A stretch of DNA of 64,000 nucleotides from Kiritimatiellia bacterium (GTDB taxonomy: Bacteria; Verrucomicrobiota; Kiritimatiellia; RFP12; JAAYLN01). Each line of letters begins with the position of its first letter. Within the stretch, counting starts at the first letter, position 1. Of the stretch, positions 47,334-63,094 are shown piece by piece. The stretch covers positions 40,784 through 104,783 of the forward strand of contig JAZUMF010000005.1 of NCBI GenBank assembly GCA_045603485.1. Reading direction: 5' to 3'. Below the pieces are notes generated by a model. The model saw only the letters and a list, made by a program, of their open reading frames with translations. It searched no databases and was not told where the DNA came from. A program made the position numbers and the translations under genes.

Positions 47334-47352
47334 CGGGTACAAGAAAAGAACT

Positions 47353-47381: not shown

Positions 47382-47551
47382 TTGGTATAATATTAGCCAA
47401 ACGATGAAACGCGGATTGACAGATTCTCGTACTTGGCATCATGCCGGCCTTGGCAAGGGCGGGCATTGGGAGACCGTGGTGCCATGAGACGAGATTGTCA
47501 AATGAACTCATTCTCTAAAACTAAAACCACAAACAAAAAGGATAAACAAAA

Positions 47552-48077: not shown

Positions 48078-49199
48078 ATGAAGATTAAGAAGAACCTGTT
48101 ACTGGTCGTTATCCCAACGGTCACTGTTTTGGCATTTGTCATATTTTTTGCATGCCGAAACAGACAACCAGCTTCTGCCGATAATGCTGTCCAAGTTGGT
48201 GTGATTCTGCCTTTGACGGGCTCGCTTGGATATGAAGGAACTCGTATGAAAGATGCGATGGACTTGGCATTGTCCCAATTAGATGGTGAAAAACAACAAT
48301 GTTTAAAACTCAATTACGAAGACGGGAAGTTTTTGGTTCGCGATTCCATATCGGCGTTCAACAAATTAAACGAGAAGGGGATGGATGCATGGGTCATTTT
48401 TGGTGATACGCCGTTGTTAGGCATGAAAACTTTACTTGAGAAGACTGGAAAACCAGTTTTGTGCCTCATTGGAGCTCAGGATCTAGTCAAAGATTCGCAA
48501 ACGTTCTTCCATTTTTCGGGATCTATAACGTTGCCGGCTATTGAGAATGCTAAGTTTGCCAAGCGCAAGGGCGTGAAGACGGTCTCTTTAATTTATTTAA
48601 ATGAACAGATTGGTTTGGAGGTGAAGGGTGCTTTTGAACGGGAGTTTATAGACGAAGCACATAAGGTAGTCGCGTCAGAGGGATTTGACATGGGGCAACG
48701 AGCAATGAAGAGTTTGGTTGCGAAAGCTATTGCGCCTAATCCTGACGCAGTATTTGTTTATGGATATGCGACTCCATATATTGAAATCTTAAACGAAATA
48801 AAAAATGTTGGCTACCGTGGAATTGTTTTGACAGATGGAAATCTTGCCGCTGTAAAACCCGATCTTATCGATGGTGGGGAGGGCGTTTGGTATGCAGATT
48901 TTGATTTTGGCGATGGATGTGAGAACCCAGAGACTAAAAAGTTTCTGCATGACATGCATGACATCTATGGGGAGACTGCGAGTTCCTTTTCCGCATTTGC
49001 CTATGAAACGGTACGTGTGCTGTCGACAATTATCCATGATAAGGGTAAAACCCCTGCCGATATTCATAGCGGATTGTTGGCAATTAAGGACTACCACTCT
49101 ATTTTTGGTGTGATATCGTATCGTGACAATAGGGAACTTGAAATCCCAGTAGTGATTAAAAAGGCAACACGGGATAGCGCACAAGTTGTTAATGATTAA
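48078..49199 (+). CDS. Leu/Ile/Val-binding-protein-like periplasmic binding protein (ABC substrate-binding or sensor PBP)
   Basis: N-terminal TM/signal anchor, then a type-I PBP fold pattern (VQVGVILPLTGSLGYEG...). It lies immediately upstream of the giant gene and is coupled to it. Confidence 0.75.
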   Translation: MKIKKNLLLVVIPTVTVLAFVIFFACRNRQPASADNAVQVGVILPLTGSLGYEGTRMKDAMDLALSQLDGEKQQCLKLNYEDGKFLVRDSISAFNKLNEKGMDAWVIFGDTPLLGMKTLLEKTGKPVLCLIGAQDLVKDSQTFFHFSGSITLPAIENAKFAKRKGVKTVSLIYLNEQIGLEVKGAFEREFIDEAHKVVASEGFDMGQRAMKSLVAKAIAPNPDAVFVYGYATPYIEILNEIKNVGYRGIVLTDGNLAAVKPDLIDGGEGVWYADFDFGDGCENPETKKFLHDMHDIYGETASSFSAFAYETVRVLSTIIHDKGKTPADIHSGLLAIKDYHSIFGVISYRDNRELEIPVVIKKATRDSAQVVND

Positions 49200-49212
49200 G
49201 GAGGCTCCGCTC

Positions 49213-52200
49213 ATGGATGCAGGACCGGATGCACAGCATGGTGTAAATACAGGCGTTGTGGAATCCAAATACTATGTGGATGTATGGTTGCCGGACGCTA
49301 AAGACTATCCGGGGTTGAGAGGAGCAAGTCCCAAAGTCCAAGAGGCATTGGGTCTAGGCCTTGGACTTCCAGATAAACCTACAGTTGTTCCACTTGGTGA
49401 AATAGAAATTAATCTTAAGCCTCGGTTCTATAAGCGAAACGAAAAGAATCTTGATATTGATAGTGAATCGGTCGCGGCCATTTCGTTTTCGGAAGATTTC
49501 GCGAAGCAGTGTAATTCCAATGATGTGGCCGTTCTTGCAATGATGGGTGGGGTTCTTCCTGCAGGGAAGAATTTCTTTAGAATGGGTTTTTCCGTTGAAA
49601 CTATTGCGGCCATCATTGGAGATCAGATTATTAATGATAATGACGGACGGGTGTCTCATGTTTTTTTGATTCGTGTGGATAATGATCTTGGAAATGAATT
49701 TGAACGAGCATTCTCAAGGGCGGTGAATGCCCCAAACCAAGGGCGTTCTTTGGATATACTCAAGATTGATGAGAACGGTACCCCCATTACTAAGAAGATA
49801 CAAATTACGCCGACGGACGAACAGGTGGCACGGAATACCTCAACGAATGAGGGTGTTATTAGTAAATGGTTGACTAGTTGTATTAAAAATCCGGAACACC
49901 CAAGAAATCAAGGCCTGAGATCTGTTGTCATATATGGATATTGGGAGCAATATTGGAATTTCGTAATAGAAGTATTAAGATGCAAAGCCTTTTGTAACGA
50001 CGAAGATTGGTTATATGTTGAGTCAAATTACCCGCTACATTATCCCTTTATTCTTTATGAAGCACGACATGTAGATGATTTAGATCAAGATGATTTGCAA
50101 AATTTTACTAAAGAACGCACTGATGATATTATTCCGAGATCGGTGGAAATTACGAGTTCGGGAAAAAATAATAAAAGGATAATGGGAGATAAAAAACAAG
50201 AGAAAACAGGAGGTGAAAGTCCAGAGAAACCGCCGGAGAGTGTGTTTCACCCTCAGAAGGGGAATTTGCAAAACAACAATGAAGACGAAAGGGATTTCAA
50301 TATATTTAATGAAAAGAAAATGGCTCATGCGAGTACGATAGCTCATGCGATCAAGAATAGGGATGAACCTGAAGAAGAGCATCAAAAAGAATCTAAGGAA
50401 CTCAGTCAAGAAAAGCTTATGCCGAGGGAACTTAAGCGAATTCGTTGTATAACGGGTAGACTCGTTAATGATGGTGAAAGTAGTTTCATTACATTTGCGA
50501 AGGAAACGGTTCGCCTGCTTCGTGCTGCTATTAGGGACGCTCATGAAAAAAAGGGAAAAGCGCAAGATCGGACCATCAAATCTATACGAGAATGCATATG
50601 CAAGTTTTTGGCAAATAGTAAGTTCTATGCAGCGGAACATCTAGGGTCTTTCTTTTTTCGAAAAGATGGTGAATTGTTTTTCCCTCTCTACCTCTATAAC
50701 GGAAAGCTTGAGCGACAAAGAATCGTCAGAGAGTCTTGTTGTAAGGGTGATGAATTCACAAAGGAGGCTATAGCCGATCAATTACTACAACTATCTAATT
50801 CTCTGAACAAGATAACGCGGGCTGAAATCCCCCGCAACCTTAAGGTAGGCAATTCGGATGGTGCTAAGAAGGTATTTGAGGAATTCAGTAAAATAATTGC
50901 TGACATCTCAAAGGGAATTGAGATTAAGTTTGTAAGCTATTATCCTAATACAGAGCACCTGTTCTATACATGGACAGATACGCAGGAGGGAAATGTTGAT
51001 AAGACGGAGCGATTTATCAATGTTAGCATTTTTGATGATGTTTGTAAAAAAATACAAGGTGTAATCCAGATTAACTTAAAAGATTTTGATTTGGAAGATA
51101 ACGATGCATATAGAGTATATTTGGTCTACGAGAGGACTGAAAAAGTTTTTGATGCATTAACTCTGGCGGAGTGGTGGAATACACAAAGCAATGATTGCCA
51201 GGCGACGATTATAGCTGGGAATAAAGGTTGGGAGAGATGTCTATTGCCTGTTAAGGCGGTTGTGTTTGCCAAATCAAGGATTGGGAAACAAGACGGTCAG
51301 ACGGATGAGGGTATGTCTGAAAACGAGTATAAAGATATTATAGACAATGCCAATTATGCACACTACTACCGCGACTGCGACGGCCATGAAAGCAAGTTCA
51401 AGTTTGATGAGATTTTAAGTGGTCTTTGTAAACTTCTTGGGTGTAGTGGAGACAACGGCAATTCAGAATCAGATGCCCGTTTTTTATATTATATTCCTGA
51501 ATATATTCCGGAAGACAACAAACCTGAAGGCAATAATAGTTACAAGATAGGTGGGCAAGGCGGAATCGTTATGGCGACTTGTTGCAAGTTGTCTTTGTTT
51601 GATTTGCAAATTGTTGAGAATATGGTCTCCCACATTTTTTCTAAGCTAAAAACATGTTTGGCAGAACATGATGTCCTCCTTTCAAATATAAAATCTGCCA
51701 TTGGCTCCATAATGTCTCGCAATGGTTCTCATAACATTGGTAGCCATGTATTGGCGGCACTGTCGCACAATGTGGGAACATTGCCGGATGATAGGGTGTT
51801 ATATCAGTATATTCAGCAGCGGATGGATTATATTGCAACGGTGACGACGGACTTTCCGACATGGACGCAACCGACAATGTTTGTAGCCGATATGATGAAA
51901 ACTTTTTTATCGCAGAGGCATTTATTAGATCATATTGTGGAGAGCGAAGGGTTGCATGCATTTCAGTTTCAAAATCCTAATATGACGGATGAGGAGTGGG
52001 CGGCTCAAGAAAACTGTGTAAAGATTTATGTTAGGAAGTTAGATGGTGATGGAAGTGTAAAGGACTTCATTGAATATGAAAAGGGTAAACGAGAACTTCC
52101 CATTGATTTGACTAATGATGTTGATTTAGCAATTCCCGGGGGAATAATTGGTGAACATGCGTTCTATACGATTCTTGAAAATATAATTCGGAATGCCGCG

Positions 52201-54687
52201 AAACATTCTTGGGCGAAGATTAAACAATGGCAAATAAGGCAAAACGAAATTGAGTTGCAGTATAATAATTTGGAGCTTTTCATTGATTTTGAAGAAAAGG
52301 ATGATGAGGTTAAGTATAACGTTTATGCAAAGTTGCCGATGGCTCAGGTAGTTGTGGAAAAATCTAAAGCTGACAATAAATTATGTCAGAAGGTGATTGC
52401 TTCAGAACAACTGATTAAATGGAAGGAAAAGTTTGATGATATGGGTGTAGTGAAAGCAAAGGAGGAAAATGCTTTTAAGGAGCTGCCAGATTATGAACAG
52501 GAACAGGTCAAACTACATTTGGCTAATCTCAAAGACGATCCACTTAAAAAATGGGTAGATAGATATGACAAACAAGGCGGATTGACATCTGATGAGCAGA
52601 AGGAGTTTGATTCATTGGCGATTCATCATAAGCAACAAGTTATGTTGGCGAGGCCTTTTATTGATTCGCAGGGAGCACTTCGTCGTGAGAATTGGGGTAT
52701 GGCAGAAATGAAGATATCGGCAGGATATCTCGCTGGCGAATCTATTGAGGCGATAGGGGGTATTGGAGACAAAAAAGGAAGTAATGAAATTATAACGCCA
52801 CGCATCAAATCAGAAAAGGTCAAGAGGAAATGTATAGAATCAGGGGAAAAAGTAACAGAAATTGAGGTCGAAGAACTATATTTAGGCTATGAATTTTCTA
52901 TTGCCAAACCCAAGGAAATATTGATTATAGTTGCGGAGGAGCTGAATAGGGAAGGAAAAGACGATGAATGGGGTAGTGAAAATATTCGTAATGAATTAAA
53001 AAAGCATGGGATTTTTGTTAAGACAGTTAGCGAGATAAAACAGGAGAACCGTCTTAATTACAGGTATGTAGTTCATTATAATGCACGTGAGTTGTTTGAT
53101 AAAAATTATCATGTTAAAGATGATGTTTTATTGCCGTTTAGAGTGTTAAGTGTGGCGGATATTGAGGATGAAAGGCTTAAAGATTTTATTCCGACAATAG
53201 ATATAAGTAAACTAAAAGAGTGTTTCGAGAAGGGCACTGAAGATCCGAAAAACGGAATTCAAAAACTTGTCTACGATACTTATCTTAAACATTTTTTGTC
53301 ACAACGGAGTGTAGATAATATTGGTCTTTTGGTTGCGATAAATGAAAATGAGAAATCTGGCGGAAATAGTTTGATTTCGGATGCGGATATTCTTGAATTG
53401 ATGCTTGAGCAGAATTTTGCTGTGTGCGTAGCTCAATACAAGGAATTTGCAGCTAACGAAGATAAGATTATTAAGTGTTTAGAATCGATTCGTCATAAAA
53501 GTAGTGCTAAAGATACAGTAATAAAGTTTAAGCACTTCTCAAATAAGACGATAAGGGAATTGATTGCACAACGTATGTGCGATTGGGCTGGAAAGTCTAA
53601 TGATTCATGGATTCCAATAGTTGAACATTTGCGTAAAAAGTATTTCGTATCAGATGCTGAGAGCGAAACTTCCAATGAGCTTAAGCCAAGTAATAATGAA
53701 ATATCAGTTGATTTTGCAGCAAGTGTAAATTCTCTGTCGCAAAAACATCCGATTGATGATTTTATCCGTTATGTGGAATCGATTTTTGAAAATACAAAGA
53801 AACTGTTTAAACAGTATGAAGAGCAGATTGTGACGTTGCCGGCAGGGTATAAGGTTCAATCTTCTGATGTTGGAGAAGGGGCGTCGCTTATAGACGGGAT
53901 TAAGATTATTACATCAGCAGAGAAAGAAGAACTTGAAAAAGAAAAAGATCGCCACTGGATTGGGTATCGCCGTCATGCTCATACGCTACCTGTTGATGAT
54001 TCCAAGAGACTTTATGTTGAGCCGTTAAGCGGAACTCAGACATACTTGTCACAATTGGCGAGAGTAAAAACCGATCTTGGATTGCAAATGCGTCTTATAG
54101 AAAATGGCCTTATGCGTATTCTTGTTCTTGATGAACGAGTTGCGAAGTTCCTTCGTGAGCATCAAAAGGAAGTTGGCCCGCATTATAAGTCGATGAATAT
54201 CCATGTCATTGATCACGAATGGGTTGTTGCTGGTGGAGAAACTCCTCCTGAGGGTTTTTACGGAAAGTTTACTTCTGTGCACAAAGAAGCGTTGAAATCA
54301 TTTGTAAAACCGAAAGATTCTAATGATGGTGAGAATAACCAAAATGGGAATGCCGATGTGAGCTCGAATTCGAACCTTACTATGTTTGATGATGTTGACA
54401 TCTTAATCGTTCATCAGGGGATTCTGGATAAATGGTACCCTGAATTCAAAAATCGTAAGGATATGTGGAAGTTATTGGAAGGGTTCAAGAAATTAGTGAA
54501 ATATGTTGTCGTGACTACTGGTCGAGGGACTCCGGAGAACATACCTGAAGAGACTCATCTGTTGCCGTTCGCCGTCGTTGAATCTACACTCTTTAAGAAA
54601 TATCCAGAGAAGTTGATCTTAACAGATACTATCATGAATGTCCTTCCTGTTGGGAAGAAGAACGACAACTCTGGAGGCCAAAAATGA
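49213..54687 (+). CDS. Giant (1824 aa) cytoplasmic protein with a histidine-kinase-type GHKL ATPase N-box and a degenerate receiver-like C-terminus; AT-rich
   Basis: ATG 49213 lies 10 nt after AAGGAGG, which overlaps the PBP stop. N-box-like LENIIRNAAKHS at about 52176-52210. An upstream H-rich motif SRNGSHNIGSHVLAALSH at about 51712-51765. C-terminus RILVLDERV...DILIVHQGILD...YVVVTTGRG. No Walker A and no TM helices found. The nucleotide composition is visibly AT-rich compared with the flanks. Confidence 0.6.
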   Translation: MDAGPDAQHGVNTGVVESKYYVDVWLPDAKDYPGLRGASPKVQEALGLGLGLPDKPTVVPLGEIEINLKPRFYKRNEKNLDIDSESVAAISFSEDFAKQCNSNDVAVLAMMGGVLPAGKNFFRMGFSVETIAAIIGDQIINDNDGRVSHVFLIRVDNDLGNEFERAFSRAVNAPNQGRSLDILKIDENGTPITKKIQITPTDEQVARNTSTNEGVISKWLTSCIKNPEHPRNQGLRSVVIYGYWEQYWNFVIEVLRCKAFCNDEDWLYVESNYPLHYPFILYEARHVDDLDQDDLQNFTKERTDDIIPRSVEITSSGKNNKRIMGDKKQEKTGGESPEKPPESVFHPQKGNLQNNNEDERDFNIFNEKKMAHASTIAHAIKNRDEPEEEHQKESKELSQEKLMPRELKRIRCITGRLVNDGESSFITFAKETVRLLRAAIRDAHEKKGKAQDRTIKSIRECICKFLANSKFYAAEHLGSFFFRKDGELFFPLYLYNGKLERQRIVRESCCKGDEFTKEAIADQLLQLSNSLNKITRAEIPRNLKVGNSDGAKKVFEEFSKIIADISKGIEIKFVSYYPNTEHLFYTWTDTQEGNVDKTERFINVSIFDDVCKKIQGVIQINLKDFDLEDNDAYRVYLVYERTEKVFDALTLAEWWNTQSNDCQATIIAGNKGWERCLLPVKAVVFAKSRIGKQDGQTDEGMSENEYKDIIDNANYAHYYRDCDGHESKFKFDEILSGLCKLLGCSGDNGNSESDARFLYYIPEYIPEDNKPEGNNSYKIGGQGGIVMATCCKLSLFDLQIVENMVSHIFSKLKTCLAEHDVLLSNIKSAIGSIMSRNGSHNIGSHVLAALSHNVGTLPDDRVLYQYIQQRMDYIATVTTDFPTWTQPTMFVADMMKTFLSQRHLLDHIVESEGLHAFQFQNPNMTDEEWAAQENCVKIYVRKLDGDGSVKDFIEYEKGKRELPIDLTNDVDLAIPGGIIGEHAFYTILENIIRNAAKHSWAKIKQWQIRQNEIELQYNNLELFIDFEEKDDEVKYNVYAKLPMAQVVVEKSKADNKLCQKVIASEQLIKWKEKFDDMGVVKAKEENAFKELPDYEQEQVKLHLANLKDDPLKKWVDRYDKQGGLTSDEQKEFDSLAIHHKQQVMLARPFIDSQGALRRENWGMAEMKISAGYLAGESIEAIGGIGDKKGSNEIITPRIKSEKVKRKCIESGEKVTEIEVEELYLGYEFSIAKPKEILIIVAEELNREGKDDEWGSENIRNELKKHGIFVKTVSEIKQENRLNYRYVVHYNARELFDKNYHVKDDVLLPFRVLSVADIEDERLKDFIPTIDISKLKECFEKGTEDPKNGIQKLVYDTYLKHFLSQRSVDNIGLLVAINENEKSGGNSLISDADILELMLEQNFAVCVAQYKEFAANEDKIIKCLESIRHKSSAKDTVIKFKHFSNKTIRELIAQRMCDWAGKSNDSWIPIVEHLRKKYFVSDAESETSNELKPSNNEISVDFAASVNSLSQKHPIDDFIRYVESIFENTKKLFKQYEEQIVTLPAGYKVQSSDVGEGASLIDGIKIITSAEKEELEKEKDRHWIGYRRHAHTLPVDDSKRLYVEPLSGTQTYLSQLARVKTDLGLQMRLIENGLMRILVLDERVAKFLREHQKEVGPHYKSMNIHVIDHEWVVAGGETPPEGFYGKFTSVHKEALKSFVKPKDSNDGENNQNGNADVSSNSNLTMFDDVDILIVHQGILDKWYPEFKNRKDMWKLLEGFKKLVKYVVVTTGRGTPENIPEETHLLPFAVVESTLFKKYPEKLILTDTIMNVLPVGKKNDNSGGQK

Positions 54688-55280: not shown

Positions 55281-58200
55281 GCAATGGCAGAAAATTAAAT
55301 CTTTTTATTTTTGACTTGGCACAGCATGGAGAACTGACAAACCTAGTACTGTGGCAAGTAGCTAAGATGTTTGAGATGAGGTGTGGTATCTGTGTTGCTT
55401 CTTATTCATGGTGTGCGCCTTTAAAGAAAGAGAAATTTATTCCTCTATTTCTTTGCAATTCGTATGATGAGATTAGGGCGCATGGTTTTAATGTGCCAAG
55501 AGAATTTGTCTTTGAGGTTGGATTGAATCCTAATCCTAATTATATTGATGATCCAGATAATCAACCAGAGATGTTGTGTGAGATCTTAGGGGATAAGATA
55601 GAAGATCGGTTAAGTCTGTATAAGGAGTTAGAAATAGGTGTAAGTTTTGAGGATGTTAAAGACTGGTGTGTCGGTGCGTTTCGTAGATATTTGTTTATGG
55701 ATGATGATGTTCACGGAACATCGGGGACTTTTTCTATTTCGGAATTAATGAAATGCAACAAAGAAACAGGCTTGAATGTTGATGATAAATATTGGCAAAA
55801 ATGGTTTGGGGAATTCGGTGATGACAAAAATAAATTTAACAGAGAGATGTTGCGGGCTAGATTCGGAGTTGGCGTGAAAAATTCAAGTGACAGTACAACG
55901 CAAAATCCAAAGGAAGATGATCCGCTCAGAAATTATAAGGATGTATTGTCGGTTGTGTTTGAGGAAGAATTTAGGTGCATAAAAGCAGACGTTATTGAGA
56001 ATCCGGGCGAAAGCTATCAAAGAGTAAAAGATTTTTTTGAGAAGAAGTTTCCAAGTCAGCAAGGTCTTGCATTAAAATTTATTTCTCCATGCGGAAAGAT
56101 ACGTGTACTTGTTGTAGATGATAATGCTACAGCCGAAGTTGAAAGTCTTAAAAGTAAAGAATCGTTGTCTAATATTTTTGATTTTGCTCCGTTGGATTTG
56201 AAGAAGCGAGATGATGAATCTTCGAATCAGTTTATAAAAAGATCCATAGGCGAGATAAAAAATAAATCTAAGGAATGTGTTGATGTAATTTTATTAGATC
56301 TAAGCTTAGGCGAGGCGACAGGTTCTGATTTGACTGGCTATCATCTGATTAAGAGATTTAAGCAATGGATGCCGACGGCCTATATCATTATTTATTCTGA
56401 ACATGAGGATATGGGGCATATTGTTCGTGCGTTCAGAGAGGGTGCCGATTGGTTTTTGAAAAAGAGCGAAGCTCAAGAAAAACTTGCGCGTCATTTTATT
56501 TCGTTGATGGCGAATCGCAAATGGAGAAAAGAATTCGGCGTCATCAGACCGAAATATGTTCTTGATATAAAAGGCAAGGATGAAAATTTTATCGCCAAAT
56601 TCAATGTAAAAGAGGTATGGCAATATTTGACAATAAAAAGTCTGGAATTATTGCCGGGACATTATATCAAGATAAATAAGATGGGGGGCGGTATCAGTTC
56701 GGCTGTCACATTCCGAGCGCAGAAAGGCATTACAAGAGATACTGAAGATAATCAGGCGCCCGTAATCATCAAGATAGATTCTGTTTTTAATACGAGGATG
56801 GAATATGAGCGTTATTTCCGCTTCATTCGACCGTATATTGCCAATGAGTCGGGGCGGATAGAGAAGCGTGAAATAGTTCTCAATAGGGATAGCGCCGCGA
56901 TTGTTTATACATTTACAGGGCGGCGAGATGCTGCACATGAACTTAACACCTTGGACGAACTGCTGCGCCGCGATATGTTATCGCGTGAAACTTGCGATTA
57001 TGAAAAATATCGCAAGATGTTTAATGCGCTGTTTGATGAGATCACAGCGCGTCTGCACAGGGTGACTCCAGTCGCAGAATTCAGGGATTTAAAGACAGAT
57101 CCGGAAGAGTTGTCGGAGTTTTCTGATTATCCCAATCGCACATTTGGAGAATTGGAGAGTGATTCTATATCATCCTCCGATCAAGGTCATAAATCTTGGT
57201 TTTTCTCGAATTTTACATATAGAATGCCGATAGAGAGTGTTGCTGAAAAGTTTATAATAAGTGAAGGCTCAAGCAATCCGAATGAGGTATATGAAGTTTA
57301 TGGTATCCAGAAGGATGACTTAGGTAAGAATTCCGCTAAATACCCTTATACTTATGTTATTGAATGTCAGCGATATAAGATTAAAACTGAAAATGATAAT
57401 AAAGAGTTGCATCAAAAGGTGTTGCTGAAAGGCGATTTAGCGTCATATTACGCCCGTTTTAGGACACATCTTTGGCCGGGAATGTTGCTGTCGATAAAAC
57501 TGGGGGAAGGTCAAACATTAAATGAGAACGAACTTATGTCTTGGTGCTTTTGTTTCTGCGCCAATAAGAATTTATATCAAATCCGCGCTGAAAAGACAGA
57601 AGATGGCTCTAAACAAGAGGGATGTTTCCGGATATCTAAAAAGCTTTATAATAAGATGGCCGGATGGTTTAAGGATAAAGAAAACCGATACTTAATAACA
57701 GTTCGTGACGCGCTGAAAAAACTTGTCGATGAGGAGCCGCACAGATTTGTGTGTCCGGTTGGTATTGTGCACGGCGATTTAAATCTTAAGAACATTATGA
57801 TTGAATCCCGGGTCAATCCACCGAAAGAAATTCAAGCAGACATAACGAAGGTTTTGTCTGATGTGTGGCTTATAGACTTTGCTCGGACGCGGCGAGATGT
57901 CGTAGCACATGATTTCAATGTCGCTTTTACATCAGTACTTCCGTTGCTCTTTCAGCCGGATCTCGTTGGGACGCATGAGAAGGGTAAACCGTTTGAGCAG
58001 AATGATGAGCAGAAGAAATACGTCGAAGAATTAGATGAAAAACTTGAACCGTATTTGCGCCATGTTCTCTTTGACAAGTATGATACTTTGTCGGATTTGT
58101 TTGCGGAAGATCAGCGACTTGTTTTCATGTACAAGATATTAAGAAGAATCCGTAAAGCGGCACTTGCGACGGGGATGTCGGAGGATATGTATCTACTGAC

Positions 58201-58354
58201 GACAGCACTGACATGTTTGTATTCGTTTAAACTGTATTTAAAACAAGGAATGCCGGAAGCCGCAACAGCACTTGTAATGGCGGGATTGCTTTGCGTGGAG
58301 AAGTTGAATCCGCCAGATGACTGTTTCGAAGCATCTAATCAGAAAACATTATGA
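55277..58354 (+). CDS. Receiver (REC) domain fused to a eukaryotic-like Ser/Thr protein-kinase-like domain (1025 aa)
   Basis: REC: VLVVDDN (56101-56127), VILLDLSL, IIIYSEHED, DWFLKKS. Kinase: G-loop KMGGGISSAV, beta3 VIIKI, catalytic loop HGDLNLKNIMI (57769-57803), and DFG-like LIDFARTR. Confidence 0.7.
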   Translation: MSNGRKLNLFIFDLAQHGELTNLVLWQVAKMFEMRCGICVASYSWCAPLKKEKFIPLFLCNSYDEIRAHGFNVPREFVFEVGLNPNPNYIDDPDNQPEMLCEILGDKIEDRLSLYKELEIGVSFEDVKDWCVGAFRRYLFMDDDVHGTSGTFSISELMKCNKETGLNVDDKYWQKWFGEFGDDKNKFNREMLRARFGVGVKNSSDSTTQNPKEDDPLRNYKDVLSVVFEEEFRCIKADVIENPGESYQRVKDFFEKKFPSQQGLALKFISPCGKIRVLVVDDNATAEVESLKSKESLSNIFDFAPLDLKKRDDESSNQFIKRSIGEIKNKSKECVDVILLDLSLGEATGSDLTGYHLIKRFKQWMPTAYIIIYSEHEDMGHIVRAFREGADWFLKKSEAQEKLARHFISLMANRKWRKEFGVIRPKYVLDIKGKDENFIAKFNVKEVWQYLTIKSLELLPGHYIKINKMGGGISSAVTFRAQKGITRDTEDNQAPVIIKIDSVFNTRMEYERYFRFIRPYIANESGRIEKREIVLNRDSAAIVYTFTGRRDAAHELNTLDELLRRDMLSRETCDYEKYRKMFNALFDEITARLHRVTPVAEFRDLKTDPEELSEFSDYPNRTFGELESDSISSSDQGHKSWFFSNFTYRMPIESVAEKFIISEGSSNPNEVYEVYGIQKDDLGKNSAKYPYTYVIECQRYKIKTENDNKELHQKVLLKGDLASYYARFRTHLWPGMLLSIKLGEGQTLNENELMSWCFCFCANKNLYQIRAEKTEDGSKQEGCFRISKKLYNKMAGWFKDKENRYLITVRDALKKLVDEEPHRFVCPVGIVHGDLNLKNIMIESRVNPPKEIQADITKVLSDVWLIDFARTRRDVVAHDFNVAFTSVLPLLFQPDLVGTHEKGKPFEQNDEQKKYVEELDEKLEPYLRHVLFDKYDTLSDLFAEDQRLVFMYKILRRIRKAALATGMSEDMYLLTTALTCLYSFKLYLKQGMPEAATALVMAGLLCVEKLNPPDDCFEASNQKTL

Positions 58355-59031
58355 CACCTAAACGCATAATCCTTGTTCGCCACGGTGAATCGGAGGCGAA
58401 TGTCGATCCGACGGTGTATGCCCGCGTGCCGGATTGGCGGATTGCACTTACAGCAACTGGTGTTGAGCAGGCTCGGGATGCTGGGCGGAAGATTGCGGGA
58501 TTGATTGGCGGCGAGTCGTTCGGGGTGTTCAGCTCGCCGTATGTGCGAACGGAACAGACCAAGGACGCGATGCTGGAGGGAATGGGGCGCGAGCCGGTGT
58601 TTGACTACCAAGATCCAACTTTGCGCGAACAGGAATACGGCAACATGCCGCCGACAGATGAGAACAATGCGAACCGTGAGTTCCGCAAGAAGTTCGGCTA
58701 CTTTTTCTACCGTTTCCCGAACGGTGAATCGTGCGCCGATGTCTCGGATCGTATCACGCTCTTCCTTGACTCCCTCTATCGCCGGTTTGAGCGCGACACG
58801 TGTCCCGAGAACATCATCATCGTTTCCCACGGCACGGCTATCAAGTGCTTCCTTGCTAGATGGTATCATTGGTCGATTGCAAAGTTTGATACCATTCCCC
58901 AGTTGCCAAACTGCCATGTTAGTGTGATGAGACGAATTGATGGGGATGTGCAACGCGCTTCTTCGCAGTTTGAATTGCATGAACCATTTGAAACAGTATG
59001 CTGTTTCTCAATGAAAGGTAAAGAACAATGA
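58351..59031 (+). CDS. Histidine phosphatase superfamily (PGM/SixA branch) protein
   Basis: N-terminal RIILVRHGESEANV (RHG catalytic motif) and a downstream SHG. ATGA overlap with the kinase gene. GC-rich, like the host. Confidence 0.75.
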   Translation: MTPKRIILVRHGESEANVDPTVYARVPDWRIALTATGVEQARDAGRKIAGLIGGESFGVFSSPYVRTEQTKDAMLEGMGREPVFDYQDPTLREQEYGNMPPTDENNANREFRKKFGYFFYRFPNGESCADVSDRITLFLDSLYRRFERDTCPENIIIVSHGTAIKCFLARWYHWSIAKFDTIPQLPNCHVSVMRRIDGDVQRASSQFELHEPFETVCCFSMKGKEQ

Positions 59032-60935
59032 CAATTGTTCAAGATCAGTTTGACGCATCGTCCTTCCAAGTTCCGCCGAAAGTCGGGAAGTCTGGAATGT
59101 TGGGCGACCTGTCGGGTGCCCTGCAGGTGTTAAACCGTGTTGCGTTTAGCATTGGATGGATACTGTTGGCCATAGCGGCTCCGCTTGCATGGGGCTTCTT
59201 GCCGTTTGGTTATGAGAAACTTAAGGAGAGCGCCGAAATCAGCGCGGTGCCATCGCTGACAGTGTGTATGCGAATGACTTTCGCTGCTTTATTCTCGCTT
59301 GCTGTGCTTGCCGTCTGGGTGGCTATAGGCAAGGCTGTGTATCGTGGGTGTGACGGAGACGTGCCTTGGTTTAAGAAGATGTTACGAGAAACGCGGGAAG
59401 CCTTAAAGCGTCATTGGCGGCCACTCCTTGCGTTGCCGGTTCTTTATGTTGTCGCGCGCATATTGGAAATGGAATTGTTGTTGAACGCATCGCGGATTGG
59501 GGTGGAAGGACCATTCGGCGGCGCATTGGAGCAATACGGATATTTTCTGGGATTGCTTTTGATAATACTTTTGCCTACGGCCAGATTGCGTAATTTTTCC
59601 ATCGTGGATATGCTTGTGTGGACAGTTACTGTGGTTATGGTTTTCGCTAGCGCAGTTCTGAATCTGACTGCTCGCGTCCATGTTGCCCACTGGAATTCTG
59701 TTTACATAATGACCGTCATGGCGTTTGCCGTGGCTGTGATAGGGCTTTTCTCTGCACTTGTAAAGACGGCAAGTGGCTTTGCGGCGGAGTTCTCGGAAGA
59801 TGTCAGCAAACATCGTTTTGCTCCAGCCATATTTGCCAGCATGGTCGTGAACATGGTAATGGCTGCAGGGGCGGCTGTGTTGTCTATTCTGTATCTGATT
59901 GTCTATTTTGCTGCAAAGGGCTGGAAGTGGATGTCGTATGGCGATAAGATCAAATATTCGATGAGCGATGCATTGCCCGCATATTTCTCAGATGGAAAAT
60001 GGTTCTGGTTTTTGATTGTAATTGTTGTTGTGGGATCGTTGGTTGCGCCGATTTGCCAGTTGGCGGGTGTAGCGCTACACGATGCGGCAATAAGGAATCG
60101 CAAATTATCGAAATATGGCATATCTGGCAGGGACTGGCTGATAGTGTGTGGCGGATTTGAGCCTATGTTTGTGGTCCTGATCGGCATTTGTTCTGGTGCA
60201 ACATTCATAAGCAATTTCTCGATAGCGCTCTCGTTTGGCCTTGTGCTTGCGATTGGCTTGCTCAGGGTCGTGAAGGTGTGGAGTGCGAAGAATACAGTCC
60301 TCAGGAATGGTATCTTTACCCATATTCGTGGCAGTTCAAGAGGCCCTGATTCGACCATGTCTGAGGATGATTTGCTTCTGCGCGCGGAAAAACTAGCTCT
60401 CCTGAAATTCTATGACAAGCGCCGCGAATTTAGGGGAACAAGGTTGGGTGTGTGGCCCAAACCCGCTTTGCTGCGTGATCTTATCGACAGGCATGATGCG
60501 GTTAAGGATTTCTTATCTGCTGCTACAACGCAGGAAGTTCTATGTGGGAGAGAGCCTTTTTATACGCCGCTTATAGGCGGTGAAGTCTTCTTCACGCAGG
60601 ACGATCCTTTCACTCATGATGTTCTCTCTGCCCAATTCGCTTGGCTCAAACGGCGGCATCCGGATGTTGATGTGACGTCCTTCAGCTATTTGCTAAAGCG
60701 TTTTTGCAGTGAATCCGCTGGATGGAATGGCAAGTTGGGGTTGAAGAGCCTGGCTTGTGCTGGCGAACCGAATGCAACGCCATATATAATCATCCCGAGA
60801 AACCTGAAGGCGGCGACGGGCTTTTGTAGTGACTGGAACAAACTCCTTGCAGTCCTTCATGGAATCGTTGACAGAGAGGAAATACCTCAATATGTCAACG
60901 CCTTGATGTTGGATGCAAAGAACATTGATGACTGA
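59028..60935 (+). CDS. Polytopic membrane protein (about 8 TM) with a 300-aa C-terminal cytoplasmic domain of unknown function
   Basis: Hydrophobic helices throughout the first 330 aa. ATGA overlap with the phosphatase gene. Confidence 0.5.
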   Translation: MTIVQDQFDASSFQVPPKVGKSGMLGDLSGALQVLNRVAFSIGWILLAIAAPLAWGFLPFGYEKLKESAEISAVPSLTVCMRMTFAALFSLAVLAVWVAIGKAVYRGCDGDVPWFKKMLRETREALKRHWRPLLALPVLYVVARILEMELLLNASRIGVEGPFGGALEQYGYFLGLLLIILLPTARLRNFSIVDMLVWTVTVVMVFASAVLNLTARVHVAHWNSVYIMTVMAFAVAVIGLFSALVKTASGFAAEFSEDVSKHRFAPAIFASMVVNMVMAAGAAVLSILYLIVYFAAKGWKWMSYGDKIKYSMSDALPAYFSDGKWFWFLIVIVVVGSLVAPICQLAGVALHDAAIRNRKLSKYGISGRDWLIVCGGFEPMFVVLIGICSGATFISNFSIALSFGLVLAIGLLRVVKVWSAKNTVLRNGIFTHIRGSSRGPDSTMSEDDLLLRAEKLALLKFYDKRREFRGTRLGVWPKPALLRDLIDRHDAVKDFLSAATTQEVLCGREPFYTPLIGGEVFFTQDDPFTHDVLSAQFAWLKRRHPDVDVTSFSYLLKRFCSESAGWNGKLGLKSLACAGEPNATPYIIIPRNLKAATGFCSDWNKLLAVLHGIVDREEIPQYVNALMLDAKNIDD

Positions 60936-60954
60936 CGGCGCAAGGAGTGTTATC

Positions 60955-62436
60955 ATGCGATTCTCATGGATTAAGATTTTTTTCACGCCGTTGAGGGGGA
61001 TTAAGAACCTCTTTGGGCTGCTTACGACGTGCCTGTTTTGTCAGCAGACGCTTACGCTGCTTTTTCTGATGTTTTCCATCTGGACTCTAGGTGCTGCATA
61101 TGCCTTCTTTTATCTTCACGATCCGAATTGGGGTCAATGGAGTTTTGTGCATCTTTTTGATTTGACAGAGACACGTCGAACGCTTAATGAGTCATCTGGA
61201 GTCGGGAAAGCGGTCGCCGTTCTGCTATATGGCGTGACATGGCTTATTGGTGGCGGCATCCTGTTGGGCGTTATTGTGGACAGAAGTGCGCGTTTCATGT
61301 CAACGGTAAGAGATGGCCATGTCCGTTATCGTCGTGCATTGCGCGATCATTTTGTGATATTGGGATGGGAGCCAAATGTAGTATCCCTTTTGCGCAACCT
61401 TTCTGGAGGTGGTCGACTGCTATCTTTTTTTTCGTTGCGCGCTTTGTTCCGGCCGAGGATTGTCATCTTGTCAGAATGCCCTGCGGTGGAAATTCACCAG
61501 CAGATAGCAGAGGCATTTGGCCGCAGTTTCTTTAAGGTACTTCCTTTTGGGCTGATTGTGTACAATGGGGCTTATGATGCGAAAGACGAGTTCAAGATGC
61601 TGGTTTTGCGCTATGCGCGCAAGATATATGTGACAGGAGAGGAACCAGAGGCCTCGCATGATTCAAGAGTGTTGCTGTTCCTTGCAAGCCTTGAGGCTTT
61701 TTTGGGGAAATATAAACCGAGACAGCGTATTAACTGCCATGTTCGCATTGCTTCTTATTCGCTTTTCAGGCTTTTGGTGTTGTCGATAAACAAGGGATCG
61801 CCCGTTGGCAATCATAAGTACGAGTATCTGACCGTCCGCTTTTTCAACTTCTACGAGAATTGGGCCAAACGACTATTCTCGGAAAACCCTGCGAATGGTC
61901 GTGCATATCCATCAGTGGTGTTTAGACCTGACGATGGTCAGAGCCGTGTTCGTGTTGTTGTCGTAGGGTTTGGCAAAATGGGGCAGGCGTTGATTGTGGA
62001 GATCCTTCGTTCCCATCCGCAAAGGAAAGGACGAATGATTGACATTGTGGTTGTTGATCCCGATGTAAATGTTCTCCGAAAGCAGTTCATGATGTCGCAT
62101 AGTGACATAGCGACGGGCGAGTACATGAAGCACGCGACTCTTAGATTTGCCAAGGCGATGCGAGTGGAGGATGCCGCATTTCGCAACATGATCAAGCGTT
62201 TCGAGGCGGAAGGAGACCAAATTACTGTCATGTTGACATACAACAGCCCTGACGATGTAGTCGTGAGGGCGGTTGCGCTTGCCTCCAAATATAAATCTGC
62301 CAATATCTTTGCTCGGCTAAACATCGCCGTACCAGATGTGGACAAGTGCAGAGATGTTGTTGCAGAAAGCTACAATTTGAACCGGCTTTACCTGTATGGA
62401 TTTAAGGATGGTGCTGGGTTTGGGAAGGAGATTTAG
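60955..62436 (+). CDS. Membrane-anchored protein with two TrkA-N/RCK-like Rossmann domains
   Basis: Two N-terminal TM helices, then HFVILGWEPNVV and later VRVVVVGFGKMGQALIVEIL...IDIVVVDPD, both glycine-rich beta-alpha-beta NAD(P)-binding-like motifs. The ATG at 60955 follows AGGAG; the ORF track start at 60913 overlaps the previous gene. Confidence 0.5.
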   Translation: MRFSWIKIFFTPLRGIKNLFGLLTTCLFCQQTLTLLFLMFSIWTLGAAYAFFYLHDPNWGQWSFVHLFDLTETRRTLNESSGVGKAVAVLLYGVTWLIGGGILLGVIVDRSARFMSTVRDGHVRYRRALRDHFVILGWEPNVVSLLRNLSGGGRLLSFFSLRALFRPRIVILSECPAVEIHQQIAEAFGRSFFKVLPFGLIVYNGAYDAKDEFKMLVLRYARKIYVTGEEPEASHDSRVLLFLASLEAFLGKYKPRQRINCHVRIASYSLFRLLVLSINKGSPVGNHKYEYLTVRFFNFYENWAKRLFSENPANGRAYPSVVFRPDDGQSRVRVVVVGFGKMGQALIVEILRSHPQRKGRMIDIVVVDPDVNVLRKQFMMSHSDIATGEYMKHATLRFAKAMRVEDAAFRNMIKRFEAEGDQITVMLTYNSPDDVVVRAVALASKYKSANIFARLNIAVPDVDKCRDVVAESYNLNRLYLYGFKDGAGFGKEI

Positions 62437-62437
62437 G

Positions 62438-63094
62438 ATGCAAAAGCTTGAAGAGCGTGTTGAAAAAATACGAAATCCTATGACATCCCGACTAAGGGAG
62501 TTTGCCGATGCCATGGGGCGGGAACTTGCGGAAGCGTGTAGCATTCCTGGCGCACATTATATCCTTGGCGGGGCGTTAGGGTATAACGCGTCTTTGGTGG
62601 GAAACTATGATATTGACTTGCGATTGTTGATTCCCAACGCGGGGAAGAGCCATGAGGAAGTGCGGCGGCAGATTGACGCGGTGAAGGACTTGCTGGCGGC
62701 GCGGGCGAAGGACGATCCAACATTCAAGATAAAGTTCATCGATGAGGGCGGAACGAACTACATCTGGCACACGAAACAGATCGTGAAGGTTCCGGGCATC
62801 CCTGGCAATCCAGATGTTGAGTTGACGTGGAACATCCAAGCAGAAAGTACGTACAAGAGTATCGCCGAGATGGCGGCGCGTCTGCCGAAGAGGGTAATCG
62901 ACCGCTATGTTGTCGAGAAGTGGAACGCGCAGCAGGCAGGCAAGGAGGCTTACAAAGCCCTCAAGGGCGAATGGAAGGGGATGATCAACCGTTTGATCGA
63001 TAAAGGCGCTCGAAAGATGGATGATGAGTCCTTGCGTGAGTTGCTGGATTCAGTAGCCAGTCAATATTCAAAGTTTTTGAAAGAAAGGAAATGA
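62438..63094 (+). CDS. Minimal nucleotidyltransferase (Pol-beta superfamily) with helical C-terminal domain
   Basis: LGGALGYNASLVGNYDIDLRLLIP fits the G[GS]x(9-13)DxD nucleotidyltransferase signature (62564-62633). ATG 62438 lies 2 nt after the previous stop, with an RBS (GGAAGGAG). Confidence 0.55.
   Translation: MQKLEERVEKIRNPMTSRLREFADAMGRELAEACSIPGAHYILGGALGYNASLVGNYDIDLRLLIPNAGKSHEEVRRQIDAVKDLLAARAKDDPTFKIKFIDEGGTNYIWHTKQIVKVPGIPGNPDVELTWNIQAESTYKSIAEMAARLPKRVIDRYVVEKWNAQQAGKEAYKALKGEWKGMINRLIDKGARKMDDESLRELLDSVASQYSKFLKERK

What the first reader, a model, noticed from the sequence alone, without database searches (positions are those of the whole stretch)
48078..63094. Compositional mosaic inside one translationally coupled gene chain
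From the PBP gene onward every junction is a coupled or overlapping start: an RBS over the PBP stop, then ATGA at 54684, 55277, 58351 and 59028, an 8- or 23-nt overlap at about 60930, and a 2-nt gap at 62437. Yet the middle three genes (49.2-58.4 kb) are markedly AT-rich and the flanking genes are GC-normal. One explanation is a recent in-frame cassette replacement inside a pre-existing operon. Another is a long-resident module whose codon usage is constrained for a different reason.
Basis: seen in the sequence. Interest (0 to 1): 0.6.

Follow-up and report, generated by a model that had tools for sequence, protein, structure and literature searches.

The report
AT-rich swappable sensor cassette in operon
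The AT-rich stretch is real: it is the exchangeable, fast-diversifying core (binding protein, giant kinase-like protein, small partner, receiver-kinase) of an unannotated transporter-linked signalling operon, and related bacteria swap it by recombination between conserved frame genes.

Summary
About 10.3 kb (48078-58350) has GC3 0.36-0.41, against 0.52 +/- 0.06 for 41 other ORFs in the window. The GC jump sits exactly on the ATGA overlap at 58351. Four genes are AT-rich, not three, because the periplasmic-binding-protein (SBP) gene is included.

The chain belongs to a larger operon: livHMGF ABC importer, SBP, 1824-aa "giant" protein, small protein, REC-TCAD9 kinase-like protein, His_Phos, membrane proteins, 218-aa protein.

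Seven close relatives and about 40 more distant metagenomic loci keep this order. SBP and giant are AT-richer than the adjacent liv genes in 20/21 and 19/21 loci, so the mosaic is a family hallmark rather than a one-off import.

The block is also a replaceable cassette:
- Hosts with 93% nt-identical liv genes carry SBPs only 23% identical.
- Hosts with saturated livF divergence share 98-100% identical nt blocks in SBP and the giant's N-terminal part.
- The nearest relative switches at about 48.57 and 50.6 kb. Similarity is lost at about 51.98 kb and returns at 58351.

The giant's core defines a large unannotated family (2,696 representatives) that lies next to an SBP gene in most loci where the upstream flank is visible, with REC proteins nearby in many.

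Function is inferred to be a transporter-coupled phosphorelay. The cause of the AT-richness remains unresolved.

The parts
42005..45249 (+). livH (42005-42889), livM (about 42886-43755), livG (about 43742-44551) and livF (44542-45249). This is a HAAT-type ABC importer and forms the conserved upstream 'frame' of the system.
   Evidence: Pfam BPD_transp_2 x2 and ABC_tran x2. The same genes lie upstream of the SBP-giant pair, wherever the upstream flank is on the contig, in most related loci. GC3 is 0.53-0.65.
45250..47551 (+). Lineage-specific insertion slot. It holds a Schlafen AlbA_2/HATPase_c_4/wHTH gene (ends at 46702) and a 132-aa gene with an acidic tail (46935-47333).
   Evidence: Pfam. 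The contents of this slot differ in every relative.
47552..48040 (+). YbjN-like 162-aa gene. It is found only with the 'type A' cassette and is GC-normal (GC3 0.69).
   Evidence: Pfam YbjN 2.6e-05. 78-92% aa identity in L001-L007. 98-100% nt identity to L003.
48078..49199 (+). Solute-binding protein (Peripla_BP_6) with an N-terminal membrane anchor or lipoprotein-like signal. It is the first gene of the AT-rich block.
   Evidence: Pfam 6.2e-26. Hydrophobic segment at residues 7-25. GC3 0.412. 87-97% aa identity in type A relatives but 21-33% in L011/L012/L014/L020. The nearest relative switches from L003 to L006 at about 48570.
49213..54687 (+). Giant 1824-aa cytoplasmic protein. Residues 1-923 are a recombining conserved part and residues ~924-1824 are hypervariable. 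The core (residues about 828-1200) carries a near-invariant motif AIGSIMSRNGSHNIGSHVLAALSHNVGTMPDDRVLYQYIQHRMDYIA (nt about 51697-51837), an N-box-like ENIIRNAAKH (nt 52177-52206) and ENWGxAEMxISAGYL.
   Evidence: No Pfam, NCBIfam, PADLOC or PDB sequence hit. Seven 90% clusters found by word search. A core profile finds 2,696 representatives. Motif conservation. Mosaic pattern.
54684..55280 (+). Small 198-aa hyperdivergent partner protein. Its shared motifs are VVFIxKDxxEFxRY, hHWGGG and SSxR. In L001 it is fused to the N-terminus of REC-TCAD9.
   Evidence: Weak pairwise similarity among the small ORFs of all loci, E 1e-7 to 1e-3. No Pfam hit.
55277..58354 (+). REC + TCAD9 (protein-kinase/APH-like) protein of 1025 aa. 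It is the last gene of the AT-rich block.
   Evidence: Pfam TCAD9 2.9e-20 and Response_reg 7.6e-09. 31-33% aa identity (BLASTP) to relatives. Invariant residues: REC D281 D282 D341 S374 K396; kinase K499, H832-G-D-L-N...N839, D867-F-A. Singleton 90% cluster.
58351..59031 (+). Histidine phosphatase (His_Phos_1). It is a conserved 'frame' gene. Both the GC rise and the return of nucleotide similarity begin at its ATG.
   Evidence: Pfam 2.6e-30. blastn matches to L003, L005 and L007 start exactly at 58351. GC3 0.59, tracking the host in relatives.
59028..62436 (+). Second variable region, GC-normal. It holds a 635-aa protein with about 9 hydrophobic (predicted transmembrane) segments, then a 502/507-aa protein with 2-3 N-terminal TM segments and a weak TrkA_N-like Rossmann domain.
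   Evidence: Hydropathy. TrkA_N E = 0.017, below Pfam's cut-off. 33% or absent, and 26-60% aa identity in relatives. No nt similarity.
62438..63094 (+). 218-aa conserved downstream frame gene. It has a possible minimal nucleotidyltransferase motif (GGALGYNASLVGNYDIDLRLLIP); this reading is an inference from the sequence only.
   Evidence: 63-86% aa identity in relatives, including L011 at 78%. 97% nt identity to L003 from 62557 to the window end. No Pfam hit.
51984..58350 (+). Hypervariable region VR1: the C-terminal half of the giant, the small protein and REC-TCAD9.
   Evidence: No blastn match longer than about 300 nt or above 74% identity to any relative. About 20% aa identity, with conserved islands at giant residues 1151-1200, 1601-1650 and 1751-1800.

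Best explanation
The AT-rich block 48078-58350 is the exchangeable specificity cassette of a conserved operon. The cassette comprises the solute-binding protein (SBP), the giant kinase-like protein, the small partner and the REC-TCAD9 kinase-like protein. The operon is built on a Liv/HAAT-type ABC importer.

Shown:
- The cassette lies between conserved frame genes: livHMGF upstream, His_Phos and the 218-aa gene downstream.
- In related Lentisphaerota-like genomes it exists as deeply diverged alleles at the same chromosomal position.
- It is reshuffled by homologous recombination at conserved anchor segments. In this window the nearest relative switches at about 48.57 kb (inside the SBP gene) and about 50.6 kb, similarity is lost at about 51.98 kb (inside the giant gene), and it returns exactly at the His_Phos ATG (58351).
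- Low GC is a property of the whole allele pool and of the wider family, independent of host GC. The compositional step is therefore inherited with the cassette, not created by one recent foreign import.

Inferred:
- The operon is a transporter-coupled phosphorelay. The SBP and ABC importer deliver or report a ligand. The giant protein, with its non-canonical H-box/N-box-like core, is the phosphodonor. The REC domain of REC-TCAD9 (an NtrC-type regulator in distant relatives) is the acceptor and switches on the kinase-like output. His_Phos resets the signal. The downstream membrane and NTase-like proteins are outputs.
- The variable region covers segments of three consecutive proteins, presumably because interacting surfaces must co-vary. 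This resembles pherotype or toxin-immunity loci.
- AT-richness probably reflects AT-biased mutation combined with weak codon selection in a gene set that circulates between hosts. Selection for low expression is not excluded.
For: GC3 contrast:
- Quantified in this window.
- Present in all seven close loci. SBP GC3 is 0.40-0.43 while liv GC3 is 0.53-0.88.
- Family-wide in 21 non-redundant loci: SBP < liv in 20, giant < liv in 19. Mean differences are -0.23 and -0.19, Wilcoxon p about 1e-5, and the slope against host GC3 is only 0.32-0.40.

Cassette polymorphism:
- L002 vs L011: livG 98% and livF 95% aa, but SBP 23%, giant 47% and REC-TCAD9 40%.
- Nucleotide similarity between L002 and L011 ends at the livF stop and resumes in p218.
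- L003 vs L014: livF 91%, SBP 23%.

Recent inter-lineage exchange:
- livF dS is saturated between the window and its relatives, whereas SBP dS is 0.14-0.30 and giant-N dS 0.23-0.55.
- In a 300-nt sliding window, the window is 98-100% identical to L003 over 47.67-48.57 kb, to L006/L007 over 48.57-50.67 kb, and 94-99% to L003/L001 over 50.67-51.57 kb.
- The same block pattern is seen at protein level.

Not an assembly artefact:
- The same giant allele recurs at 97.7-99.1% identity, over its full length or the whole of shorter copies, in independent assemblies.
- L003/L004/L008 and L001/L009 are independent copies.

Synteny and system membership.

Phosphorelay inference:
- Canonical REC and kinase catalytic residues are invariant at about 35% overall identity.
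- Distant members carry a stand-alone REC and an NtrC-type sigma54 regulator in place of REC-TCAD9.

No mobile-element hallmarks: no integrase-type repeats flank the block, and there are no relatives on phage or plasmid records.
Against: - Host relatedness is judged from liv genes only. If the liv genes themselves were exchanged, the contrast with the cassette would be overstated.
- All relatives are metagenomic contigs, so population structure is unknown.
- YbjN travels with the cassette (96% nt identity to L003) yet is GC-rich. 'Mobile pool equals AT-rich' is therefore not the whole story.
- The singleton-substitution spectrum suggests SBP and giant are near their own equilibrium (implied GC3 0.46-0.50), but counts are small and dominated by one locus.
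- Kinase or GHKL homology of the giant is not statistically supported. Pfam and PDB profile searches were negative. hhalign against EnvZ aligned only the N-box, at probability 0.3%. The AlphaFold models were too poor to use.
- dN/dS in the alignable part of the giant is about 0.4-0.5, which is elevated but not above 1.
Confidence: 0.68

Rival explanations
1. A single recent horizontal import: an AT-rich foreign segment from a low-GC donor replaced the middle of an otherwise native operon in this genome only.
For: The GC step falls sharply on a gene boundary. Nucleotide-identical blocks are shared with other lineages. Low GC is a classical sign of foreign DNA.
Against: The same AT-rich composition is seen in every allele of seven close loci and in 20/21 family loci across hosts with GC3 0.2-0.88. 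Amino-acid composition is also AT-shifted, which takes a long time. Synteny of the whole chain is conserved. The variable alleles are 20-40% identical, so they are ancient.
Confidence: 0.07
2. A vertically inherited, long-resident module whose low GC is maintained by selection. Candidate pressures are rare codons keeping a costly or toxic system at low expression, slow translation of a very large multidomain protein, or binding of a silencer to AT-rich DNA. Cassette exchange plays no important role.
For: The contrast is family-wide and only weakly tracks host GC. The substitution spectrum is compatible with a separate compositional equilibrium. The contrast begins abruptly at the SBP start even in loci without any insertion between livF and the SBP gene. 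In several loci GC3 climbs back gradually along the operon.
Against: Vertical descent cannot give SBP 23% identity next to livF 95%. It also cannot give SBP 97% next to livF 69% with saturated dS, or alternating 98-100% identical blocks with different relatives. Selection on composition could still act in addition to exchange, and that part is not excluded.
Confidence: 0.15
3. Artefact: the mosaic is produced by chimeric metagenome assembly of co-occurring strains that switch at conserved segments.
For: The window comes from a 105-kb NCBI contig; the name attached to its livH cluster suggests a Lentisphaerota metagenome-assembled genome. All comparators are metagenomic contigs. The block switches lie in conserved segments, where assemblers can jump.
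Against: The full-length giant allele with the same block pattern is recovered at 99.1% identity in independent ENA and Logan assemblies, on up to 79-kb contigs. L003 and L004 come from different samples and have the same gene layout and identical blastn matches to the window. The GC contrast does not depend on the mosaic at all.
Confidence: 0.03

Closest known systems
Polymorphic 'specificity' loci with conserved frames and low-GC hypervariable cassettes. Examples are Bacillus comQXPA pherotypes, Staphylococcus agrBDC groups, and O-antigen or capsule clusters. This comparison comes from my own knowledge and was not tested here.
   Same: A hypervariable stretch spans parts of several adjacent interacting genes. 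It is bounded by conserved genes in which recombination occurs. Alleles are far older than the host lineages. GC is lower than in the flanks.
   Different: The gene content is unrelated: SBP, a giant unannotated protein and REC-TCAD9. No pheromone or glycosyltransferase genes are present. The polymorphism crosses hosts that differ by about 30% in LivF.
Two-component or phosphorelay systems that sense through an ABC transporter or its binding protein. Examples are BceRS-BceAB, PhoR-PstSCAB-PhoU, LuxP-LuxQ and TorT-TorS (my own knowledge).
   Same: A transporter with its SBP is encoded together with a kinase-like protein and receiver-domain proteins. Distant relatives end in a standard NtrC-type sigma54 response regulator.
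   Different: The putative kinase is a 1,100-1,900-aa soluble protein with no HisKA or HATPase_c hit in any library. The output in this clade is a receiver fused to a protein-kinase-like TCAD9 domain, followed by a histidine phosphatase.
Detocs, the defensive two-component system (bioRxiv 10.1101/2023.01.24.525353, found; the component description is from my own knowledge)
   Same: The concept of a phosphorelay used outside classical gene regulation, with a receiver-fused effector and an extra component that can drain or reset the phosphoryl signal.
   Different: No PADLOC model matches any gene of the chain. There is no nucleosidase effector. Detocs has no ABC importer or SBP.
MoxR-vWA 'ternary' conflict systems (Kaur et al. 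2020, PMC7159879); I attribute the name of the TCAD9 domain to these from my own knowledge
   Same: The TCAD9 domain is present. So is the general theme of hypervariable, recombining conflict-type architecture.
   Different: No MoxR AAA+, vWA, VMAP or iSTAND component was detected in the chain.

Membership tests
HAAT (Liv-type) ABC importer with cognate binding protein | Two BPD_transp_2 permeases and two ABC_tran ATPases | tested here: met
   Pfam hits at 42005-45249.
HAAT (Liv-type) ABC importer with cognate binding protein | A Peripla_BP_6 solute-binding protein with an export signal, encoded with the transporter | tested here: met
   Peripla_BP_6 at 6.2e-26. N-terminal hydrophobic segment at residues 7-25. 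It is the only SBP in the operon, and the livF-SBP adjacency is conserved family-wide.
Classical two-component system | Sensor kinase with recognisable HisKA/HATPase_c (GHKL) domains | tested here: not met
   No Pfam or NCBIfam hit, even at E <= 5 on segments. Eight family members also lack hits. PDB profile searches were negative. hhalign against EnvZ aligned only the N-box at probability 0.3%. What remains is motif-level resemblance: SHNIGSHVL, ENIIRNAAKH, ENWGxAEMxISAG.
Classical two-component system | Receiver domain with the acidic pair, phospho-acceptor Asp, Ser/Thr and Lys | tested here: met
   Response_reg at 7.6e-09. D281, D282, D341, S374 and K396 are invariant in 8 alleles at about 35% identity.
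Protein-kinase-like (TCAD9/APH) fold, catalytically active | Beta-3 Lys, HxDxxxxN catalytic loop and a DFG-like Asp | tested here: met
   TCAD9 at 2.9e-20. K499, H832-G-D-L-N...N839 and D867-F-A are invariant. Activity itself is not testable here.
MoxR-vWA ternary conflict system | MoxR AAA+ ATPase, a vWA protein and a third core protein (VMAP, iSTAND, etc.) | tested here: not met
   None of these domains occurs in any protein of 47.5-63.7 kb. Only the accessory TCAD9 domain is present.
Known anti-phage defence systems (PADLOC-DB v2) | A match to any system model | tested here: not met
   Zero hits for ten proteins of the locus.
Classical genomic island or mobile element | Integrase or transposase, flanking direct repeats, tRNA-adjacent insertion, or presence on phage or plasmid records | tested here: not met
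   There are no flanking repeats, no recombinase domain among the proteins scanned, no relative in viral contigs, and no plasmid match. The tRNA-Lys and tRNA-Pro genes lie 2.2 kb upstream of livH, not at the block boundary.
Recombining allelic cassette locus (frame + variable cassette) | Same chromosomal position, conserved flanks, deeply diverged alleles, and phylogenetic incongruence along the locus | tested here: met

The most novel reading that the evidence does not exclude
The SBP-giant gene pair may define a widespread class of signalling proteins in bacteria and archaea that has no entry in Pfam, NCBIfam or PADLOC. These would be transporter-coupled cytoplasmic proteins with a non-canonical, almost invariant catalytic core. 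In gut or rumen Lentisphaerota, the partner-specificity half of the system would be kept as an ancient balanced polymorphism and traded between species. That would make it a new self/non-self, kin-recognition or immune-type signalling locus rather than a nutrient sensor.
Probability: 0.25. Interest if true: 0.85.

Novelty: new variant of a known kind. Interest (0 to 1): 0.66.

Why it matters
- A simple compositional anomaly turns out to mark a recombination-shuffled cassette inside a translationally coupled operon, with one cassette boundary exactly at a start/stop overlap. This is a clean natural example of modules being swapped without breaking operon coupling.
- It exposes a large protein family with no Pfam, NCBIfam, PADLOC or PDB relative: 2,696 representatives at 50% identity, in bacteria and archaea. 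The family has a roughly 47-residue near-invariant motif and lies next to a solute-binding protein gene in most loci examined, with receiver proteins nearby in many. This makes it directly testable as a new kind of sensor kinase or ATPase.
- The systematic AT-richness of the SBP and giant genes relative to their own transporter genes, across hosts of very different GC, is a well-posed case for separating mutation bias and gene flow from selection on composition.

Tried and rejected
- Two genome-contig scans, with REC-TCAD9 and with the giant alignment, found nothing. No annotated reference genome context was therefore available.
- Exact look-ups of window proteins on contigs failed.
- AlphaFold2 on a 7-sequence alignment gave poor models. 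Giant residues 1-1200 had mean pLDDT 34 and residues 1150-1824 had pLDDT 51. Foldseek of the latter against the PDB gave only E > 0.1 hits to KaiC, GlmS and others, which I regard as meaningless. No fold assignment is claimed.
- PDB sequence and profile searches with the core gave nothing, or chance eIF3h hits.
GHKL homology is left as an inference.
- PADLOC gave no hits.
- Literature searches for TCAD9 or 'ternary complex associated domain' found no text defining it.
- The promoter/terminator scan showed no convincing internal terminator, and counts were near shuffle expectation.
- The repeat search found no flanking repeats.
- Rfam found only the two tRNAs.
- The singleton-substitution direction test was too small to decide the cause of AT-richness.
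- CAI was not computed, because no trustworthy highly expressed reference set exists in the window.

Full report
**1. The observation**

- The next gene starts at ATG 49213, not at the TTG at 49186. The identical database protein P0001 is 1824 aa.
- ATGA overlaps occur at 54684, 55277, 58351 and 59028.
- The overlap near 60930 is 8 or 23 nt.
- The gap after 62436 is 1 nt.

Composition was quantified as follows.
- GC3 is 0.412 (SBP), 0.361 (giant), 0.357 (198-aa gene) and 0.383 (REC-TCAD9).
- GC3 is 0.59, 0.53, 0.51 and 0.61 for the four genes that follow, and 0.69 for the YbjN-like gene in front.
- Forty-one other long ORFs of the window average 0.524 with sd 0.058.
- GC1, GC2 and amino-acid usage are shifted too.
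- The rise is abrupt. Adjacent 150-nt windows go from 0.427 to 0.573 at 58351, and the best change point is at about 58370.

The mosaic is therefore real and far beyond sampling noise. The AT-rich block holds four genes rather than three, because the SBP gene belongs to it.

**2. What the genes are**

Pfam gives the following assignments.

| Coordinates | Assignment |
|---|---|
| 48078-49199 | Peripla_BP_6 |
| 1824-aa protein | no hit |
| 198-aa protein | no hit |
| 55277-58354 | Response_reg + TCAD9 |
| 58351-59031 | His_Phos_1 |
| three genes that follow | no significant hit |

- Hydropathy shows about nine hydrophobic (predicted transmembrane) segments in the 635-aa protein and two or three N-terminal ones in the 507-aa protein. 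The 507-aa protein also has a weak TrkA_N-like hit.
- PADLOC and NCBIfam add nothing specific.
- Upstream, 42005-45249 encodes livH, livM, livG and livF.
- Between livF and the SBP gene lie a Schlafen AlbA_2/wHTH gene, a 132-aa gene and a YbjN-like gene.
- A 90% cluster-mate of LivH is annotated in NCBI as coming from a Lentisphaerae MAG. This is the only taxonomic handle obtained.

**3. Related loci**

The giant protein has only seven 90% clusters in the word-indexed database. Their contigs (L001-L007) keep the same order: (livF) - variable slot - YbjN - SBP - giant - one or two small ORFs - REC-TCAD9 - His_Phos - membrane protein(s) - about 220-aa protein. L006 is the exception: after the giant it has a small ORF, a 4Fe-4S protein, BtpA and Maf instead.

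A profile of the giant's core (residues 780-1210) finds 2,696 representatives in the exhaustive library, 2,173 of them at E <= 1e-10.
- Eight members tested have no Pfam domain.
- Named members are all 'hypothetical protein'. They come from Calditrichaeota, Deltaproteobacteria, Bacteroidetes, a cyanobacterium and two archaeal MAGs.
- A roughly 47-residue motif, AIGSIMSRNGSHNIGSHVLAALSHNVGTMPDDRVLYQYIQHRMDYIA, is nearly invariant.

A metagenome scan returned 41 loci. None was found in viral contigs or plasmids. Local annotation of the metagenomic loci gave these results.
- The recurrent context is livH-livM-livG-livF - SBP - (0-3 genes) - giant - about 300-aa protein - further genes.
- Distant members carry a stand-alone receiver upstream and an NtrC-type sigma54 response regulator downstream.
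- In Leptolyngbya the SBP is of another family (NMT1) but still directly precedes the core protein.

The SBP is thus the transporter's own binding protein, and the transporter is part of the system. In this window the genes at 45.2-48.0 kb are lineage-specific insertions.

**4. The composition is a family hallmark**

- In all seven close loci the SBP gene has GC3 0.40-0.43. The neighbouring liv genes range from 0.53 to 0.88.
- The giant, small and REC-TCAD9 genes are mostly 0.31-0.45; a few alleles are higher (L005, L006 and L007; up to 0.70).
- His_Phos (0.59-0.78) follows the host.
- In 21 non-redundant loci with liv, SBP and giant genes, SBP < liv in 20 and giant < liv in 19. Mean differences are -0.23 and -0.19, Wilcoxon p is about 1e-5, and the regression slopes on host GC3 are only 0.32-0.40.

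A single recent import into this genome cannot explain this pattern.

**5. The block is nevertheless a swappable, recombining cassette**

Three lines of evidence support this.

(a) Near-identical hosts carry unrelated alleles.
- L002 and L011 are 93% nt identical over livMGF up to the livF stop, and 90% in the p218 gene. In between they share only short patches.
- At protein level, LivG is 98% and LivF 95% identical, but SBP is 23%, giant 47% (half length) and REC-TCAD9 40%.
- L003 and L014 show LivF 91% and SBP 23%.

(b) Diverged hosts share near-identical cassette segments.
- Window vs L003/L006/L002/L007: LivF is 69-72% identical with saturated dS, but SBP is 93-97% with dS 0.14-0.30 and giant-N dS is 0.23-0.55.

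(c) The nearest relative changes along the sequence.

| Window segment (kb) | Nearest relative | nt identity |
|---|---|---|
| 47.67-48.57 | L003 | 98-100% |
| 48.57-50.67 | L006/L007 | 98-100% |
| 50.67-51.57 | L003/L001 | 94-99% |

- The same blocks are seen in protein.
- From about 51.98 to 58.35 kb there is essentially no nucleotide similarity to any relative.
- Similarity resumes exactly at the His_Phos ATG (58351). It stops again at about 58.93 kb and resumes at 62557, at 97% identity to L003.

The locus is thus a series of conserved anchors (YbjN-SBP-giant N part; His_Phos; p218) separating two variable regions.
- VR1 comprises the giant's C-terminal half, the small protein and REC-TCAD9. 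It is AT-rich.
- VR2 comprises the membrane proteins. It is GC-normal.

Allele rarity fits this picture. The REC-TCAD9 of the window is a singleton 90% cluster among 15 billion proteins, the small protein has 2 members, His_Phos has 26 and LivH has 117.

The mosaic is not an assembly artefact. The same giant allele occurs at 99.1% identity over its full length in independent assemblies. No repeats or recombinase genes flank the block, so exchange is by homologous recombination in the anchors.

**6. How it probably works (inferred)**

- REC-TCAD9 keeps every canonical receiver residue (D281, D282, D341, S374, K396).
- It also keeps every protein-kinase-like catalytic residue (K499, HGDLNxxN at 832-839, DFA at 867-869). 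Overall identity among the eight alleles is about 35%. It is therefore a functional receiver-regulated kinase-like enzyme.
- A receiver needs a phosphodonor. The only candidate in the operon is the giant protein. Its core has an H-box-like SHNIGSHVL helix, an N-box-like ENIIRNAAKH and a G2-like ENWGxAEMxISAG.
- Its distant relatives are paired with a stand-alone receiver and an NtrC-type regulator.
- This homology is not statistically supported, and the structure models were unusable. I hold the kinase assignment at about even odds.

The model is as follows. The ABC importer and SBP report a ligand. The giant protein phosphorylates the receiver. The TCAD9 kinase-like domain acts on downstream targets, possibly the membrane, TrkA_N-like and NTase-like proteins. 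His_Phos resets the signal.

The variable region covers contiguous parts of three proteins. This is what is expected if their contact surfaces must co-vary, as in pherotype or toxin-immunity loci (my own knowledge). The small proteins are recognisably one hyperdivergent family, and in L001 the small protein is fused to REC-TCAD9.

It remains open whether the system senses a nutrient, a kin signal or an invader. The following point toward a conflict or recognition role in this clade but do not prove it:
- the TCAD9 domain;
- the neighbouring slot filled with Schlafen, DUF1016 or tubulin-like genes;
- the hypervariability.

**7. Why AT-rich?**

This is not settled.
- Gene flow plus universal AT-biased mutation and weak codon selection is the simplest reading. 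It fits the demonstrated exchange.
- Three observations leave room for selection on composition, for example low expression of a costly system. The GC-rich YbjN gene travels with the cassette. The step sits at the SBP start even where livF and the SBP gene are adjacent. The substitution spectrum is close to equilibrium.

**8. Verdict**

- The finding is real.
- The underlying object is a recombining allelic cassette in an unannotated, widespread transporter-coupled signalling family.
- The phenomenon (a low-GC hypervariable cassette between conserved frames) is of a known kind.
- This gene system, and the fact that the exchange respects translational coupling down to an ATGA overlap, are new as far as these libraries and my literature searches show.

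Noticed in passing
window 45250-47551: The slot between the livF stop and the YbjN-like gene holds different genes in every relative. In the window these are a Schlafen AlbA_2/HATPase_c_4/wHTH gene and a 132-aa acidic-tail gene. L002 has a 1002-aa Tubulin_2-like gene. L003 has DUF3990/DUF3791/DUF1016-YhcG. L005 has DUF1016. L006 and L007 have only a 45-aa ORF. It looks like a small insertion hotspot for defence-type genes.
   Followed up: partly
window 46823-46850 and about 47385-47400: The two intergenic gaps before the 132-aa gene and before YbjN each contain a look-alike extended -10 promoter-like site (ATTTTTGATATAAT and ATTTTTGGTATAAT). The first was flagged by the scan. The second was read from the junction printout.
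   Followed up: no
window 46454-46519: A 33-nt tandem duplication (85% identical copies) lies inside the Schlafen-like gene.
   Followed up: no
window 63175-63705 (indel at 63637): This ORF is a truncated copy of a 327-aa protein that is intact in L003. One extra G at 63637 shifts the frame, and the DNA is otherwise 97-99% identical. It is either a pseudogene or an assembly error.
   Followed up: yes
L002 19138-19318: L002 has lost the His_Phos gene. Only about 90-nt remnants of its 5' and 3' ends remain, joined head to tail. They match window 58337-58440 and 58831-58919, and also L011.
   Followed up: partly
L006 14837-18548: Downstream of the system in L006 are BtpA and Maf, then an ORF of at least 1818 aa with Pfam hits to both RNA polymerase Rpb2 and Rpb1 domains. 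This may be a fused beta/beta' subunit.
   Followed up: no
L006 9667-13197; L020 13619-16501; L023; L026: In several relatives the REC-TCAD9/His_Phos output is replaced by a protein of about 1000-1200 aa with multiple 4Fe-4S domains, followed in L006, L023 and L026 by BtpA-like and Maf-like genes. The output module of the system is therefore also exchangeable.
   Followed up: partly
window 39650-39812: tRNA-Lys(UUU) and tRNA-Pro(UGG) lie 2.2 kb upstream of livH. The 40-42 kb stretch between them is GC-rich (0.52-0.56) and contains only doubtful ORFs.
   Followed up: no
window 53890-54684 (giant residues about 1630-1810): The C-terminal approximately 180 residues are the only part modelled with pLDDT 70-84. 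They form a beta-alpha-beta, receiver/flavodoxin-like pattern with conserved ILIIDERV, IIHQGIIDK and VVTTGRGTPxNIP. This may be a pseudo-receiver with His where the acceptor Asp would be; that reading is an inference only.
   Followed up: partly
window 15000-24000 and 37000-40000: There are other mildly AT-rich stretches in the window (GC 0.43-0.48). One includes a 1078-aa ORF (21120-24356) and another an 818-aa ORF (36919-39375), neither with a Pfam hit.
   Followed up: no
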